Source: Candidatus Peribacteria bacterium (GTDB lineage Bacteria; Patescibacteriota; Gracilibacteria; UBA1369; LOWO2-01-FULL-3). Taken from it: DNA of 37,098 bases. The notes under the pieces were generated by a model. The model worked only from the letters and a program-made list of their open reading frames with translations. It had not been told where the DNA came from and searched no databases. The DNA lies in NCBI GenBank assembly GCA_943359415.1, contig CALRHQ010000002.1:1-37098 (forward strand), given 5' to 3'. The position numbers and the translations under genes are program-made. Within the stretch, counting starts at the first letter, position 1. The number at the start of each line of letters is the position of its first letter. This document shows positions 3,359 to 16,340 of this stretch, piece after piece.

Positions 3359-3766
3359 ATGTATAAAGATGATGACATCATTGATTTAAGAGGAAAACGT
3401 CTAAAGGATGAGAACGTTGAGTTCCGTATAGGTCGTGAGACTACTATAGTTGGTGAGTCTGAAAATCGTGTTGCCAAAGAAGTAGGTGCTTCTTCTATTT
3501 CTGTTGCTGAAGAGGAAACGTCAAGGGTTAATGATAAAGTGAAAATTAAATTTGATAAATTTGTAAATCTTATCGCGACTCATGCATATGAAGATGTTGT
3601 GCGAAAACATGCTGATGATGATGTAATAATTTCTACTGATCTTTTGGCCGATATTGCGAATGCTCATGATGAAGAAGAAAGCGACACAGGTCATAAAATT
3701 CCGATGATCTTTATCATAGGAATTGCGCTTGGGATAGCTCTTACTTATATTTTGTTTAAGATGTAA
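3359..3766 (+). CDS. Small hypothetical protein (135 aa) with a single C-terminal transmembrane anchor
   Basis: The ORF starts 5 nt after the preceding gene. It has an acidic soluble part and a C-terminal hydrophobic segment (IPMIFIIGIALGIALTYILF). No family was recognised. Confidence 0.55.
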   Translation: MYKDDDIIDLRGKRLKDENVEFRIGRETTIVGESENRVAKEVGASSISVAEEETSRVNDKVKIKFDKFVNLIATHAYEDVVRKHADDDVIISTDLLADIANAHDEEESDTGHKIPMIFIIGIALGIALTYILFKM

Positions 3767-13886: not shown

Positions 13887-14047
13887 AGAGAAAAGGCAAG
13901 AAATGAGGTTATATCTCTTCACAATTTGTTTGTGCAATTTGTCATATCTAACATGTACGATATGACAAAAATTTAGGCATCATGATGCCTAAATTGGCAC
14001 AAAAATAAATTGCTCATAGACATAACCTCATTTCTTGCCTTTTCTCT
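13887..14047. repeat. 161-bp nested palindromic element (perfect 26-bp terminal inverted repeats plus two internal hairpins); MITE-like or structured RNA
   Basis: 13887-13912 (AGAGAAAAGGCAAGAAATGAGGTTAT) is the exact reverse complement of 14022-14047. Inside are an 11-bp hairpin (13938-13948 / 13959-13969) and a perfect 26-nt palindrome (AATTTAGGCATCATGATGCCTAAATT, 13970-13995). A further imperfect stem pairs 13922-13935 with 13997-14012. Confidence 0.85.
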
Positions 14048-14079
14048 AATTCTGCTTTTATGATAATATTGTTGTGGAT

Positions 14080-14105
14080 GTCGAGATCGATAATGGTTAT
14101 CCTGA
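14080..14105 (-). other. Partial degenerate copy of the 5' half of the adjacent tRNA-like gene
   Basis: On the minus strand, TCAGGATAACCATTATCGATCTCGACAT aligns with the tRNA-like TCAGGGTGGTCCAGTTATCGATTTCGACAT. The block TTATCGAT(C/T)TCGACAT matches at 15 of 16 positions. Confidence 0.55.
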
Positions 14106-14136
14106 AAAAGAACCCCGCAATTGCGGGGTTCTTTTT
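14105..14136. terminator. Bidirectional rho-independent terminator
   Basis: AAAAA-GAACCCCGC-AATT-GCGGGGTTC-TTTTT: a 9-bp GC-rich stem and 4-nt loop, flanked by A5 and T5. It lies 9 nt past the 3' CCA of the minus-strand tRNA-like gene and downstream of the plus-strand Yip1-like gene. Confidence 0.88.
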
Positions 14137-14145
14137 GGTTAATGC

Positions 14146-14216
14146 TGGTGGAGCCACAGGGAATCGAACCCTGGTTATGCGAATGTCGAAATCGATAACT
14201 GGACCACCCTGACCCC
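14146..14216 (-). ncRNA. Non-canonical tRNA-like RNA gene (71 nt including encoded CCA); resembles the tRNA-like domain of tmRNA; not foldable as a standard cloverleaf
   Basis: Minus-strand sequence: GGGGTCAGGGTGGTCCAGTTATCGATTTCGACATTCGCATAACCAGGGTTCGATTCCCTGTGGCTCCACCA. The 7-bp acceptor stem is GGGGTCA/TGGCTCC and includes G3-U70. The T-arm is perfect (CAGGG-TTCGATT-CCCTG), followed by discriminator A and CCA. No D-stem is possible. Instead a 10-nt single strand precedes an 8-bp bulged stem (GTTATCGA/TCGCATAAC) capped by a 9-nt loop (TTTCGACAT). A strong terminator follows. Confidence 0.6.
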
Positions 14217-14346
14217 CCAATGCATTAACCAGATTGACTGTGTAGCAAGGCGATATTAAATTTTTCTAAAATCTTTGTGATTCTTATTGTTTCGTTCGAG
14301 GATTTGTTGTGAAATGGTTTTCGGGCTTTAAAAAGAGTTGATTTTG

Positions 14347-14355
14347 TGGTATAAT
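14347..14355 (+). promoter_or_regulatory. Extended -10 promoter element (TGGTATAAT) upstream of the 653-aa gene
   Basis: The TGnTATAAT consensus is matched exactly at 14347-14355, 23 nt upstream of the ATG at 14379. A weak -35-like TTTAAA sits 17 nt upstream. Confidence 0.45.
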
Positions 14356-14378: not shown

Positions 14379-16340
14379 ATGGCCGATAATAAATCAAAAA
14401 GTTTTGGGGTAAATCCGTTTGATGATGATGCAAATAGTGCTAAAGCTAAGCATTTTTCTGACGACGAAGGTTCGAATGTGGGTGATTCTCCGAGAAAAAA
14501 GGAAAAGAAGCCAAAAGTTTCTCGTGTTGTTGATGAAGATTTGGTTGATGATCAGACTGAAGTTCAGCACAAAACGAAGAAAAAGATCAAAGGATATAAG
14601 AGTGATGTTAAGGAATATGTTAGTAAAGTCGCTTCGAAAGGTCAGAGGTCTGAGCTTAAAGACTCTCTTGCCGAGGAAGGTACTTTTGCGGATAAAGATG
14701 TGAGTGTAAAGAAAAAACGTAAAAGGAAGCGAAGGAAGAAAGTAAGTGGTTCTGAAGAAGTTAATGAGAATAGTGGTGGTACAATGCCTTCTGTTGGAGC
14801 TGTTCCAGCGCCGGAGAGTTCTGAGTTCGTTGAATCTGGTTTCGTTCCTGAAGTTTCTGAAGGTATTATTGAAGAATTGGAACCTGATGGTCAAATTGTT
14901 GACCAGGCTATGCCTGAAGAGGTTGTACCTGCGAAGACAACTTTTCCTGAGGAAGAACCTGTGGTTGAAGAAAGTATTGTGCCAGAGCCTGAAGAAAGTG
15001 TTTCGACTGTGGAGGCTGTTGTTGAACCTGTTGAAGAGCCTGTTGTTTCAAAAAAAGAAACTTTTAATCCTTTTGGTGCTGAAAATGTTGAAGAGCCGGT
15101 TGTCTCAGAGAATGTTGTTCCTAAGGTTGAAGATGAATCAAATCCTTTTGCAACTTCAGAAGAAAAAAAAGAAGAAGTCATTCCGATAAATCCTTTTGCT
15201 GAGTCGTCTCAAAACACTTGGGATGAGCCAAAGTGGAGAAATTTTTCTGAGGATGAAAATGTTGTGAAAAAAGATGAACCGGTTGGTGATTTTACTGATA
15301 ACATGCCTAAGGAATCTTCTCAAGCAATTGAGCCTGAAATCGTGGAAACTCGAACTGTTTACGAAGAACCTAAGATTGTTACTAAAGAGCCTATTGCTGT
15401 CCCTCAAGAAACGAAATCTGTGTTGAAGGAAAGTACTACGCCTATAGATATTGTTTCAGATCTTCACGATCGAGATGGTTTCTTTTATATGCTTGAGCAG
15501 GCCGGAATCACAAAAGGTAAAATTTTTGGAATTGCTGCACTTTTTGTTTTTGTTCTTCTTGGAATTGTTGGAGCATTTTTTATTCCATTCGGTAATATTT
15601 TTGAAGGACTTGGTGGGAGTGATAATGCCGAAAAAAATCAACAAAAGGAACAACCTAAAAAAATAGAAAAAAAGGATGTTGAAAAGGAATCAACTTCTTC
15701 TGTGCAAAATGGTGCGGATGTCTTAAATATGAGTGAAATCTTGGGAAATGAATATGATTATTTAGTCCTTGGAAATGATAAAATTGCTGGTGCTTTTTTT
15801 GCACTTAGACTTGGTGGTGAATTTGTGAGTTCTGAACACAGATTTTCGTATTACATGAGACACCTAACTGAAATGCAAAATTTGTACGCCACAGATGTGT
15901 ATAAATTACTTGATCAATCTTATGATAGAAGGGCTACTTTAACAGATTTTTTGAATACAATGAAGGTCTCGATTGAGACTGGAAAACAGATTTATGGAGA
16001 AGCTGCAAAAGCTGCTTCGAATTTGAATGCAGCTGATATTTCTGCAAATAATCAAAAGGATATTTTTGAGCAGGAATTTTTTACCGATATTAAAGATTTG
16101 AGAGGGCAAGATTCTTTCACAAATCTTGAAAAATTTGTAGGATTTTCTCAAAATGCTGTGCGTCTTCGATCTTATTATAAAGCCTATAATTATATTTCGC
16201 AGATGTATCTTAATTCTCTTAAAAAGATTGAACCGAGATATCATGATATTTTTGTGAATTTTGATGCATTGGTGAAAGGTGTTCATGTCTTTGATGTGAT
16301 TGGTTCTGATATAAATGCAATTATTCGTTTATCTCAATAG
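14379..16340 (+). CDS. Single-pass membrane protein: ~390-aa acidic disordered N-terminal region with four NPF motifs, one TM segment, and a ~240-aa C-terminal domain (hypothetical)
   Basis: The 653-aa ORF lies behind an extended -10 promoter. The TM segment is IFGIAALFVFVLLGIVGAFFIPF. NPF occurs at residues 12, 230, 255 and 271. No family was recognised. Confidence 0.75.
   Translation: MADNKSKSFGVNPFDDDANSAKAKHFSDDEGSNVGDSPRKKEKKPKVSRVVDEDLVDDQTEVQHKTKKKIKGYKSDVKEYVSKVASKGQRSELKDSLAEEGTFADKDVSVKKKRKRKRRKKVSGSEEVNENSGGTMPSVGAVPAPESSEFVESGFVPEVSEGIIEELEPDGQIVDQAMPEEVVPAKTTFPEEEPVVEESIVPEPEESVSTVEAVVEPVEEPVVSKKETFNPFGAENVEEPVVSENVVPKVEDESNPFATSEEKKEEVIPINPFAESSQNTWDEPKWRNFSEDENVVKKDEPVGDFTDNMPKESSQAIEPEIVETRTVYEEPKIVTKEPIAVPQETKSVLKESTTPIDIVSDLHDRDGFFYMLEQAGITKGKIFGIAALFVFVLLGIVGAFFIPFGNIFEGLGGSDNAEKNQQKEQPKKIEKKDVEKESTSSVQNGADVLNMSEILGNEYDYLVLGNDKIAGAFFALRLGGEFVSSEHRFSYYMRHLTEMQNLYATDVYKLLDQSYDRRATLTDFLNTMKVSIETGKQIYGEAAKAASNLNAADISANNQKDIFEQEFFTDIKDLRGQDSFTNLEKFVGFSQNAVRLRSYYKAYNYISQMYLNSLKKIEPRYHDIFVNFDALVKGVHVFDVIGSDINAIIRLSQ

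What the first reader, a model, noticed from the sequence alone, without database searches (positions are those of the whole stretch)
14146..14216. D-arm-less tRNA-like gene that resembles the tRNA-like domain of tmRNA and has G3-U70
The minus-strand 71-mer has a flawless T-arm (CAGGG/TTCGATT/CCCTG). Its 7-bp acceptor stem contains a G3-U70 pair, the alanine identity element used by tRNA-Ala and tmRNA. It also has discriminator A and an encoded CCA, followed by a strong terminator 9 nt downstream. These are clear signs of an expressed, aminoacylatable RNA. No D-stem or 5-bp/7-nt anticodon arm can be drawn. I tested every register for a 5-bp stem with a 7-nt loop. Instead, a 10-nt single strand (GGGTGGTCCA) leads into an 8-bp bulged helix capped by TTTCGACAT. 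The loop contains UUCGAC, a sequence conserved near the 5' end of tmRNAs. The overall layout (acceptor, D-loop analogue, long helix, T-arm) is that of a tmRNA tRNA-like domain whose P2 helix is closed by a loop, with no mRNA-like domain. The only GGGG that could serve as a 5' end is at 14216, so a full-length tmRNA does not fit here.
Basis: partly seen in the sequence, partly recalled or inferred. Interest (0 to 1): 0.62.

Follow-up and report, generated by a model that had tools for sequence, protein, structure and literature searches.

The report
Alanine-type tRNA mimic with private antisense RNA
The flagged 71-base stretch is a real, conserved small-RNA gene shaped like a stripped-down alanine tRNA, and it sits beside a second small RNA built to pair with it and unfold it; this two-RNA cassette recurs in many uncultured small-genome (CPR) bacteria, and I found it in no RNA family library or paper.

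Summary
The sequence, T-arm, G3·U70 acceptor stem, A73, encoded CCA and terminator 9 nt downstream are all present as described. ARAGORN and Rfam (gathering thresholds) call nothing. A covariance model built here finds a 69-74-nt family in 51 of 56 genomes of the same family (Peregrinibacteria/Peribacteria-type CPR), up to ~11 copies per genome, and scattered across Patescibacteria. Covariation is strong: 94.6% of cells paired against ~45% for slid controls, and 18 of 24 pairs show double changes. G1-C72/G2-C71/G3·U70/A73 are invariant in 50 of 50 members.

A covarying 3-bp mini D-stem with a YGGU tetraloop exists. The loop "UUCGAC" is not conserved.

New here: each copy has a private partner. 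This is a ~66-nt sRNA with its own TATAAT promoter, convergent and sharing the bidirectional terminator. Its 5' end is antisense to the mimic's acceptor 5' strand, D-arm, long arm and loop (window: -46.5 kcal/mol). The partner co-varies with its mimic and shows a G·U-preserving substitution bias (76 versus 18, p≈1e-9).

There is no linked protein gene. A genuine tmRNA lies elsewhere in the genome. Function is unknown. My best guess is an AlaRS-chargeable tRNA mimic switched off by its antisense RNA. No expression data could be obtained.

The parts
14146..14216 (-). Compact tRNA-like RNA gene ('T', 71 nt). Acceptor 5' strand 14210-14216 and 3' strand 14150-14156 (G3·U70). Mini D-arm 14200-14209. 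Long bulged arm 14174-14199 with loop 14184-14190. T-arm 14157-14173. A73 at 14149. CCA at 14146-14148.
   Evidence: Sequence. R1 92.6 bits and R2 76.1 bits. Family covariation 94.6% paired, 18 of 24 pairs with double changes. The cloverleaf is also the minimum-free-energy fold, -22.1 kcal/mol.
14217..14232 (-). 5' leader of the T precursor. GGUUAAUGC (14222-14230) pairs with the 3' trailer.
   Evidence: Perfect 9-bp complement in the window. Leader-trailer pairing is conserved and co-varies in the family (own median -12.0 versus mismatched -5.1 kcal/mol). The precursor minimum-free-energy fold extends the acceptor stem.
14137..14145 (-). 3' trailer GCAUUAACC, which pairs with the leader.
14239..14265 (-). 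Conserved upstream motif of T genes (AAAAATTTAAT ... TGcTACACA), read as an extended -10 type promoter. The transcription start would be about 15-17 nt before G1 (inferred).
   Evidence: The same motif lies at the same distance upstream of nearly all 30 family members. The simple sigma-70 scan did not call it.
14105..14136 (.). Perfect 16+16-nt palindromic intrinsic terminator (AAAAAGAACCCCGCAA/TTGCGGGGTTCTTTTT) with an A-run and a T-run. It can serve both convergent RNAs.
   Evidence: inverted repeat I2, 100% complementary. Weak Rfam hits on both strands are terminator-driven. The same layout is seen in the other loci.
14072..14137 (+). Convergent antisense sRNA ('A', ~66 nt; ends inferred). 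Nucleotides 1-34 (14072-14105) are complementary to T positions 4-40. The rest is the terminator hairpin.
   Evidence: Direct repeat 14073-14093 versus 14178-14198. Duplex -46.5 kcal/mol; cofold -77.3 versus -50.8 for the two RNAs apart. The partner co-varies in ~26 of 30 loci. Own duplex median -35.2 versus -19.2 for mismatched partners. G·U-preserving bias 76 versus 18.
14035..14067 (+). Promoter of the antisense sRNA: TTGCCT, 18-nt spacer, TATGAT (or the overlapping GATAAT). It places the start at about 14071-14074.
   Evidence: Promoter scan. A near-consensus TATAAT lies 5-9 nt upstream of the complementary segment in nearly every family locus. Consensus TTGACA-17-TATAAT is present in the tandem-type loci of other classes.

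Best explanation
The element is one half of an autonomous two-RNA cassette.

Shown. T is a 71-nt compact cloverleaf RNA. It keeps the full alanine/tmRNA acceptor signature (G1-C72, G2-C71, G3·U70, A73, CCA), a canonical T-arm, a 3-bp/YGGU mini D-arm and a 9-bp anticodon-like arm with a 7-nt U-turn loop. It has no variable loop. Directly beyond a shared bidirectional terminator lies a separately promoted ~66-nt sRNA, A. The 5' 34 nt of A are antisense to T from acceptor position 4 through the D-arm and the long arm into the loop. Each genomic copy has its own co-evolving T/A pair. No protein gene is linked.

Inferred. T is transcribed with a leader-trailer helix, matured by RNase P and 3' trimming, and charged with alanine by AlaRS. 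The single-stranded 5' end of A nucleates on T's U-turn loop and zips up. This unfolds everything except the T-arm and so inactivates T. The long duplex may also be destroyed by RNase III.

Speculative. Free T acts on the translation or tRNA-handling machinery as a non-canonical alanyl-tRNA mimic, which would make the cassette an RNA-only effector/antidote (addiction-like) module.
For: Family and structure. R1/R2 hits of 69-74 nt occur in 51 of 56 genomes of the home family and throughout the order, with up to ~11 per genome. Covariation is 94.6% paired versus ~45% for slid partners, 18 of 24 pairs have double changes, and no shuffle out of 500 reaches the observed score. Acceptor pairs 1-3 and A73 are invariant in 50 of 50 members while pairs 4-7 turn over; CCA is encoded in 44 of 50. 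U33 is present in 44 of 45 loops and R35 in 40 of 45.

Partner. The best flank match of each hairpin lies downstream at 44-63 nt in ~26 of 30 loci (median score 14, versus control median 7.75 and control maximum 11). A conserved TATAAT sits on the opposite strand right before the complement. Own duplex median is -35.2 versus -19.2 kcal/mol for mismatched partners. Wobble-compatible substitutions outnumber incompatible ones 76 to 18, p=1.2e-9. In other classes the partner is arranged in tandem instead of convergently but is still antisense, with TTGACA-17-TATAAT. Genuine tRNA-Ala genes have no partner.

Window. Duplex -46.5 kcal/mol, covering T positions 4-40.

Autonomy and machinery. No shared neighbouring ORF in 52 loci. 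Flanking gene orientation is random, 23 versus 26. AlaRS and RNase P RNA are present. Leader-trailer helix.
Against: Leader-trailer pairing could mean the CCA is never a free 3' end. Position 37 is C in 34 of 45 loops, which is unfavourable for decoding, so a ribosomal role for T is doubtful. A few members lack a detectable partner. The models were trained on G3·U70 sequences, which biases ascertainment slightly towards that pair. Which of the two RNAs is the effector and which the regulator is not determined. The simple promoter scan did not call T's promoter.
Confidence: 0.62

Rival explanations
1. One reading: a tag-less mini-tmRNA (tRNA-like domain only). It would be alanylated and work with SmpB to release stalled ribosomes without tagging.
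For: It carries the alanine acceptor set. The Rfam tmRNA model aligns both ends (20.8 bits here; 47.8 and 47.1 bits for two relatives). Some family members share the tmRNA acceptor and T-arm exactly. Reduced tmRNA forms exist in jakobid mitochondria (abstract of PMC3590771, listed).
Against: It has a covarying D-stem and a full-length anticodon-like arm where SmpB would bind. A complete tmRNA is present in the same genome. The family is multi-copy with private, variable arms and dedicated antisense RNAs, which a rescue factor does not need. The window copy's acceptor and T-arm differ from the tmRNA's.
Confidence: 0.08
2. The roles are reversed. The sRNA A is the functional riboregulator, or its 5' end is the thing being controlled (as with RNA-IN). 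T is a stable, tRNA-shaped sponge or antisense regulator, like RNA-OUT or the RNase P-processed C4 RNA of phage P1. The alanine signature would then serve only for processing and stability.
For: T carries the structured U-turn loop and A the single-stranded 5' tail. That is the geometry of regulator and target in RNA-OUT/RNA-IN and Sok/hok (own knowledge). T has tRNA-like ends suited to RNase P. The pair co-evolves.
Against: A has no conserved ORF and ends at a terminator ~66 nt after its start. No downstream gene is consistently co-oriented. The own genome holds no other match to the seed or hairpin beyond chance. This view does not explain the strict retention of the G3·U70 wobble and A73 in 50 of 50 members.
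Confidence: 0.15
3. A dedicated non-ribosomal alanine carrier, for example a donor for Fem/MurM-type cell-wall enzymes or MprF-type lipid aminoacylation. The antisense RNA would set its level.
For: The AlaRS identity set is strictly conserved. The anticodon-like loop is atypical for decoding, with C37 in 34 of 45. Non-proteinogenic tRNAs for cell-wall synthesis are known (own knowledge).
Against: No Fem/MprF-type or any other gene is linked in 52 loci. Up to ~11 paralogues per genome, each with a private arm/antisense specificity, are hard to explain for a simple carrier. The arm length and U-turn loop are conserved although a carrier would not need them.
Confidence: 0.06
4. An odd but genuine translational tRNA. 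The window copy would have anticodon CGA and read UCG, and would be charged with alanine or serine.
For: The shape is cloverleaf-like, with an arm about as long as the D-stem plus anticodon stem of a tRNA and a 7-nt loop with U33. ARAGORN even calls the second copy in the own genome 'tRNA-Arg(acg)'.
Against: It scores below the Rfam tRNA cut-off and ARAGORN finds nothing in the window. C37 is present in most copies, and the window copy has a U·U closing pair. It has no long variable arm, which bacterial tRNA-Ser requires (own knowledge). Normal tRNA-Ser genes (UGA, GCU, GGA) are present. The copy number and triplets vary freely between close relatives. Ordinary tRNA genes lack antisense partners.
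Confidence: 0.05
5. A decaying tRNA/tmRNA pseudogene, or an attachment-site remnant of an integrated element.
For: Integrases often target tRNA and tmRNA genes (own knowledge). The second copy in the own genome (C11) has a disrupted 3' end.
Against: All four helices show compensatory covariation. The identity nucleotides are invariant. The promoters, the leader-trailer helix and a co-evolving partner are all conserved across families and classes. The context is housekeeping genes, not a prophage.
Confidence: 0.02

Closest known systems
tRNA-like domain of tmRNA, and reduced tag-less tmRNA genes (a reduced tmRNA in jakobid mitochondria, abstract of PMC3590771; other tag-less cases known to me only from memory or earlier notes)
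   Same: G1-C72/G2-C71/G3·U70/A73/CCA and the T-arm GGGUUCGAxUCCC. There is no tag reading frame. Some family members share the host tmRNA's acceptor and T-arm exactly and reach the Rfam tmRNA cut-off.
   Different: It has a covarying D-stem and a closed anticodon-like arm with a 7-nt loop instead of an open D-loop and P2 helix. It is multi-copy. It coexists with a full tmRNA. It has a dedicated antisense RNA.
tRNA-Ala and the AlaRS minihelix substrates (G3·U70 identity; own knowledge of Hou and Schimmel 1988 and Francklyn and Schimmel 1989)
   Same: The complete acceptor identity set is present, and a cloverleaf-like fold. R2 also detects genuine tRNA-Ala genes at 50-57 bits.
   Different: It is 69-74 nt long with a 3-bp/4-nt D-arm, no variable loop and a 9-bp bulged arm. 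No alanine anticodon occurs in 45 loops and C37 is common. Real tRNA-Ala genes lack the antisense partner.
C4 antisense RNA of phages P1/P7 and CI RNA of P4: tRNA-like antisense RNAs matured by RNase P (own knowledge; 'C4 antisense RNA' appears in RNase P papers listed)
   Same: A small tRNA-like RNA with a CCA-type end whose loop sequences pair with a private, co-evolving complementary RNA segment encoded nearby. Specificity differs between copies.
   Different: No Rfam C4 match. The target here is a free-standing ~66-nt sRNA, not a site in an mRNA upstream of a regulated gene. The alanine identity set is conserved. The host is a CPR chromosome, not a prophage.
Antisense pairs that use U-turn loops and 5' tails: hok/Sok and other type I toxin-antitoxin loci, IS10 RNA-IN/RNA-OUT, plasmid CopA/CopT (own knowledge)
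   Same: Locally encoded, co-evolving sense/antisense RNAs. A U-turn loop meets a single-stranded 5' tail. Transcription is convergent or tandem with a shared terminator. The loci are multi-copy and autonomous.
   Different: There is no toxin ORF or any conserved ORF. The structured partner is a tRNA mimic carrying aminoacylation marks.
Pseudo-tRNA 'tRNA-Other' of Bacillus cereus (PMC3399842)
   Same: A chromosomal tRNA-like gene that, according to that paper's abstract, does not function in translation but has physiological effects.
   Different: The fold and identity are unrelated. No antisense partner is described there. It is a single locus.

Membership tests
tRNA (Rfam RF00005 / ARAGORN) | Scores at or above the curated covariance-model threshold, or is called by a tRNA finder | tested here: not met
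   22.5 bits against a gathering score of 29. ARAGORN finds 0 genes in the window.
tRNA (Rfam RF00005 / ARAGORN) | Four-arm cloverleaf with a 5-bp anticodon stem, a 7-nt loop with U33 and a purine at 37, and a variable loop | tested here: not met
   The D-arm is only 3 bp with a 4-nt loop. The arm is 9 bp and bulged. There is no variable loop. C37 occurs in 34 of 45 loops. U33 is present in 44 of 45.
tmRNA (Rfam RF00023) | tRNA-like ends with G3·U70 and a T-arm | tested here: met
   Both ends align to the model. The score is still below the cut-off (20.8 versus 47). Two relatives reach 47.1-47.8 bits.
tmRNA (Rfam RF00023) | mRNA-like domain with a tag reading frame, and pseudoknots | tested here: not met
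   The whole RNA is 71 nt, and the model's 326 internal positions are deleted. The true tmRNA, with the tag ANTVQRLAERLAEREFSPSLAFAA, is on contig C4.
AlaRS substrate (alanine identity set) | G3·U70 wobble pair, A73 and G2-C71 in a 7-bp acceptor stem stacked on a T-arm, with a CCA end | tested here: met
   Present in the window. Invariant in 50 of 50 family members, with CCA encoded in 44 of 50. AlaRS is encoded in the genome.
AlaRS substrate (alanine identity set) | Actual aminoacylation with alanine, and a free mature 3' end | not testable with these tools
The leader-trailer helix implies that processing is needed.
Type I toxin-antitoxin locus | A small toxic-peptide ORF whose mRNA is bound by the antisense RNA | tested here: not met
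   No conserved ORF in or next to the cassette in 52 loci. The sRNA has no conserved reading frame.
C4-type RNase P-processed antisense RNA (Rfam C4) | Match to the C4 model, with target sites in an mRNA upstream of a regulated gene | tested here: not met
   No Rfam hit at gathering score. Flanking gene orientation is random, 23 versus 26.
Cis-/locally-encoded antisense RNA pair | Two separately promoted transcripts with extended complementarity that co-varies between copies | tested here: met
   Promoters. Co-variation. Directional G·U-preserving bias, p=1.2e-9. Transcription itself was not observed.

The most novel reading that the evidence does not exclude
The cassette would be an RNA-only toxin/antidote (addiction or conflict) module. 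The effector would be an AlaRS-charged, L-shaped tRNA mimic that enters the translation machinery. There it would either misinsert alanine at codons matching its free 'anticodon' or jam tRNA-handling enzymes. The antidote would be a private antisense sRNA that unfolds the mimic. Three observations fit this reading: rapid diversification of arm/antisense specificities, copy numbers of up to ~11 per genome, and the complete absence of alanine (NGC) triplets among 45 loops.
Probability: 0.2. Interest if true: 0.92.

Novelty: categorically new. Interest (0 to 1): 0.78.

Why it matters
If the two RNAs are made as predicted, CPR/Patescibacteria maintain, often in many copies, a class of gene cassette that contains no protein. 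It consists of a tRNA mimic that keeps exactly the marks read by alanyl-tRNA synthetase, plus a dedicated antisense RNA that can unfold it.

That would be a new kind of RNA-RNA regulatory or conflict module. It would also be a natural example of an aminoacylatable non-tRNA beyond tmRNA.

There is a practical annotation issue as well. Family members are currently either missed or mis-called as tRNA-Arg by ARAGORN, or reach the tmRNA threshold in Rfam.

The cassette is small enough to test directly in vitro and in E. coli laboratory strains.

Tried and rejected
- ARAGORN and Rfam at gathering thresholds found nothing in the window. Most permissive Rfam hits (Leu/Thr/Phe leaders, isrJ and others) are driven by the terminator alone.
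- The mascRNA hit (24.8 bits) only reflects generic tRNA-likeness.
- A BLAST-type DNA search in relatives mostly picked up T-arms of ordinary tRNAs. Only G024 and G052 gave real homologues. A covariance model was needed.
- Stand-in for a missing tRNA-Ala: rejected. The assembly lacks the whole rRNA operon, relatives have a normal tRNA-Ala(UGC), and no family loop carries an alanine anticodon.
- sRNA as a leader or attenuator of the downstream ORF 14379-16340: rejected. Gene orientation is random across 49 loci, and that ORF has its own promoter-like site at 14327-14355.
- Conserved protein partner: none. At most 3 of 52 loci share a flanking ORF.
- Extra genomic targets of the seed or hairpin: only chance-level matches.
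- T-box-like reading of the CCA end by the sRNA: the window's sRNA has UGGU after the seed, but this is not conserved in other loci.
- DNA-repeat or att-site explanation of the downstream copy: rejected because of the conserved promoter, the tandem variant and the directional substitution bias.
- Literature: four searches found no description of such a module.

Full report
**1. What is in the window**

The minus strand of 14146-14216 reads GGGGUCAGGGUGGUCCAGUUAUCGAUUUCGACAUUCGCAUAACCAGGGUUCGAUUCCCUGUGGCUCCACCA.
- a 7-bp acceptor stem with G3·U70;
- the T-arm CAGGG/UUCGAUU/CCCUG;
- A73 and an encoded CCA;
- 9 nt further on, a perfect 16+16-nt palindromic terminator at 14105-14136.

ARAGORN finds no tRNA or tmRNA in the whole window, and Rfam finds nothing at gathering score. 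In permissive mode the tRNA model gives 22.5 bits (cut-off 29). The tmRNA model gives 20.8 bits by aligning only the two ends (cut-off 47).

The surroundings are housekeeping genes: YceG/MltG, ribosomal protein L25, RelA/SpoT and FtsX. The genome is a 0.92-Mb, 88%-complete assembly. Its closest named relatives are Candidatus Peribacteria, Peregrinibacteria and Gracilibacteria MAGs, that is, CPR/Patescibacteria. A complete 414-nt tmRNA with a tag reading frame lies on another contig, so the element is not the organism's ssrA.

ARAGORN finds 30 tRNAs but no tRNA-Ala. The assembly has no rRNA operon at all, and that is where tRNA-Ala and tRNA-Ile normally sit. The gap is therefore an assembly artefact.

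**2. It belongs to a conserved family**

DNA similarity search found two 71-nt homologues, in another genus (G024) and another family (G052).

A covariance model built from the three sequences (R1) found 69-73-nt members in 51 of 56 genomes of the home family. Many score 40-93 bits, clearly above ordinary tRNAs (74-77 nt, ~33-38 bits). Some genomes hold up to ~11 copies.

On 30 members the proposed structure is paired in 94.6% of cells, against 42-54% when partners are slid. Eighteen of 24 pairs show changes on both sides. The covariation score is 0.726, against ~0.10 for slid partners and 0.22 for shuffles, and none of 500 shuffles reaches it.

- There is a D-stem. Nucleotides 8-10 pair with 15-17 around a YGGU tetraloop, and all three pairs covary (GAG/CUC, GGG/CCC, AAG/CUU, GUA/UAC). 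The window copy has two pairs plus a G·A.
- The long arm is a 9-bp bulged helix closed by a 7-nt loop. The window copy has a U·U at the closing position, which is why the loop looked 9 nt long.

The loop consensus is N-U-Y-R-N-C-A, with U33 in 44 of 45, a purine at 35 in 40 of 45, C37 in 34 of 45 and A38 in 42 of 45. The central triplet varies freely: UGA, UGU, CGU, CGA, ACG, GAU and others. The loop's 'UUCGAC' is therefore a coincidence and not a conserved tmRNA motif.

A shorter subtype (69-70 nt) has canonical-looking loops of the form C-U-NNN-A-A/C.

Acceptor pairs 4-7 turn over by compensatory change. In contrast, G1-C72, G2-C71, G3·U70 and A73 are invariant in 50 of 50 distinct members, and CCA is encoded in 44 of 50. 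Keeping a G·U wobble that a single transition would 'repair' argues for selection on the alanine identity mark itself.

**3.

In the window, 14073-14093 is an 86% direct repeat of 14178-14198, which covers the loop and one strand of the long arm. A sigma-70-like promoter on the plus strand (TTGCCT-18-TATGAT, 14035-14064) would start transcription at about 14072 and run into the same palindromic terminator.

Across 30 family loci, the best flank match of each copy's own arm lies downstream, on the same strand, 44-63 nt past the CCA in about 26 cases. The median score is 14. Mismatched-locus controls give a median of 7.75 and a maximum of 11.

On the opposite strand, a near-consensus TATAAT sits 5-9 nt before the complement in nearly every locus.

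Predicted duplexes between each T and its own partner have a median of -35.2 kcal/mol, against -19.2 for mismatched partners. Only 0.6% of mismatched pairs reach the own-partner median.

In the window, sRNA nucleotides 1-34 pair with T positions 4-40 (-46.5 kcal/mol). The co-fold is -77.3 kcal/mol, against -22.1 plus -28.7 for the separate RNAs. Only the T-arm stays folded.

Two further tests show that the selected interaction is RNA with RNA.
- In other classes of the phylum the partner is arranged in tandem instead of convergently. A TTGACA-17-TATAAT promoter follows directly after the CCA, then the seed, then a terminator. The transcribed strand is still antisense to the arm.
- Where T and the downstream sense copy differ, G·U-preserving transitions (T=G/copy=A, 51; T=U/copy=C, 25) outnumber the reverse transitions (13 and 5), giving 76 versus 18, p=1.2e-9 over 41 loci. 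Simple AT pressure would not give this pattern.

Genuine 76-nt tRNA-Ala(UGC) genes detected by the same model have no partner.

**4. Other anatomy**

T genes share a conserved upstream motif (AAAATTTAAT...TGnTAnnAC). I read it as an extended -10 promoter that places the transcription start ~15-17 nt before G1 (inferred).

The leader then pairs with the trailer just after the CCA. In the window this is GGUUAAUGC with GCAUUAACC. The helix co-varies across the family (own median -12.0, mismatched -5.1 kcal/mol) and extends the acceptor stem in the precursor's minimum-free-energy fold. This suggests a processed stable RNA. RNase P RNA and AlaRS are both encoded.

**5. What the cassette is not**

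- No protein gene is linked. At most 3 of 52 loci share a homologous flanking ORF.
- The genes on either side are randomly oriented, 23 versus 26. The sRNA is therefore not a leader or attenuator for a downstream gene, even though in the window it happens to point towards ORF 14379-16340.
- The own genome holds no further target of the seed beyond chance.
- Pseudogene or att-remnant readings are contradicted by the covariation and by the conserved promoters and partner.

**6. Relation to tmRNA**

tmRNAs of this order have an invariant acceptor (GGGGAUG/CAUCUCC) and T-arm. Several short-subtype members share both exactly, including the own genome's second copy on C11. Two members reach the Rfam tmRNA cut-off through their ends alone. 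Other members share the acceptor of tRNA-Ala.

Descent from the tmRNA tRNA-like domain or from tRNA-Ala is therefore plausible. The present architecture differs, though. The D-stem plus a closed, full-length anticodon-like arm occupies the space SmpB fills on tmRNA. The multi-copy, private-antisense biology also does not fit a ribosome-rescue factor.

**7. Mechanism, with its status**

- Shown: the conserved structure, the identity nucleotides, the co-evolving antisense partner with its promoters and shared terminator, and the autonomy of the cassette.
- Inferred: T is matured at G1 and CCA and charged by AlaRS. The sRNA's free 5' end nucleates on T's U-turn loop and unfolds T up into the acceptor stem, so switching it off.
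- Speculative: free T acts on translation or tRNA-handling enzymes. The multiplicity of cassettes, their private specificities and the lack of linked genes resemble addiction or conflict modules. None of 45 loops carries an alanine (NGC) triplet, which is intriguing but weak evidence.
- Points against a decoding role: C37 in most copies, and the U·U closing pair in the window copy.

**8. Novelty and limits**

Rfam 15 has no matching family, and four literature searches found no description.

Several earlier AI notes of this scan describe the same kind of cassette in other CPR genomes. I treat them as leads.

The ends of both RNAs are predictions.

Noticed in passing
window 13887-14047: A 161-nt nested palindrome lies just beyond the sRNA promoter. 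Its 48-nt arms (13887-13934 and 14000-14047) are 85% complementary and enclose two further hairpins (13938-13969 and 13970-13995). The latter hairpin is a terminator-like site on the minus strand. The right arm contains the predicted -35 box of the antisense sRNA. It is also flagged by another first-stage note (e1-4489483). It may be a MITE-like insertion or a structured RNA.
   Followed up: no
own genome, contig C11:16176-16245 (not in the window): A second, short-subtype family member (loop CUACGAA) has the same upstream motif, but its 3' end reads ...CUCCGCAG instead of ...CUCCACCA and no terminator or partner follows. ARAGORN mis-calls it as tRNA-Arg(acg) with shifted ends and a mismatched acceptor. 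It may be a copy disrupted by an insertion.
   Followed up: partly
own genome as a whole: The assembly has no 16S or 23S signature motifs and no tRNA-Ala or tRNA-Ile(GAU). The rRNA operon was evidently not binned.
   Followed up: yes
G025:C11:591-661 (L111) and G071:C6:90123-90192 (L069): These 70-71-nt family members score 47.8 and 47.1 bits with the Rfam tmRNA model, whose cut-off is 47, purely through their two ends. Automatic annotation could therefore label them as tmRNA.
   Followed up: partly
family-wide (alignments A6, A7): Among 45 seven-nucleotide loops, none has an alanine anticodon (NGC). Position 36 is C in only 2 of 45, although position 35 is G in 34.
   Followed up: partly
L049 (G070:C2) and L053 (G023:C1): In these two loci the partner lies 107 nt downstream instead of ~50. 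The extra spacer contains a second copy of the T 3' end (...CGGCTCCACCAGC...) after the first terminator. This suggests a local duplication or insertion inside the cassette.
   Followed up: no
G077:C76:2620-2690 and 3642-3712; G077:C6:2744-2816 and 3469-3538: Cassettes sometimes occur in tandem, 0.7-1 kb apart, and one genome holds about 10 copies.
   Followed up: no
window 14327-14355 (+): A strong promoter-like site (TTTAAA-17-TATAAT with an upstream TG, 10 of 12 matches) lies directly upstream of the 653-aa ORF 14379-16340, which has no Pfam match.
   Followed up: no
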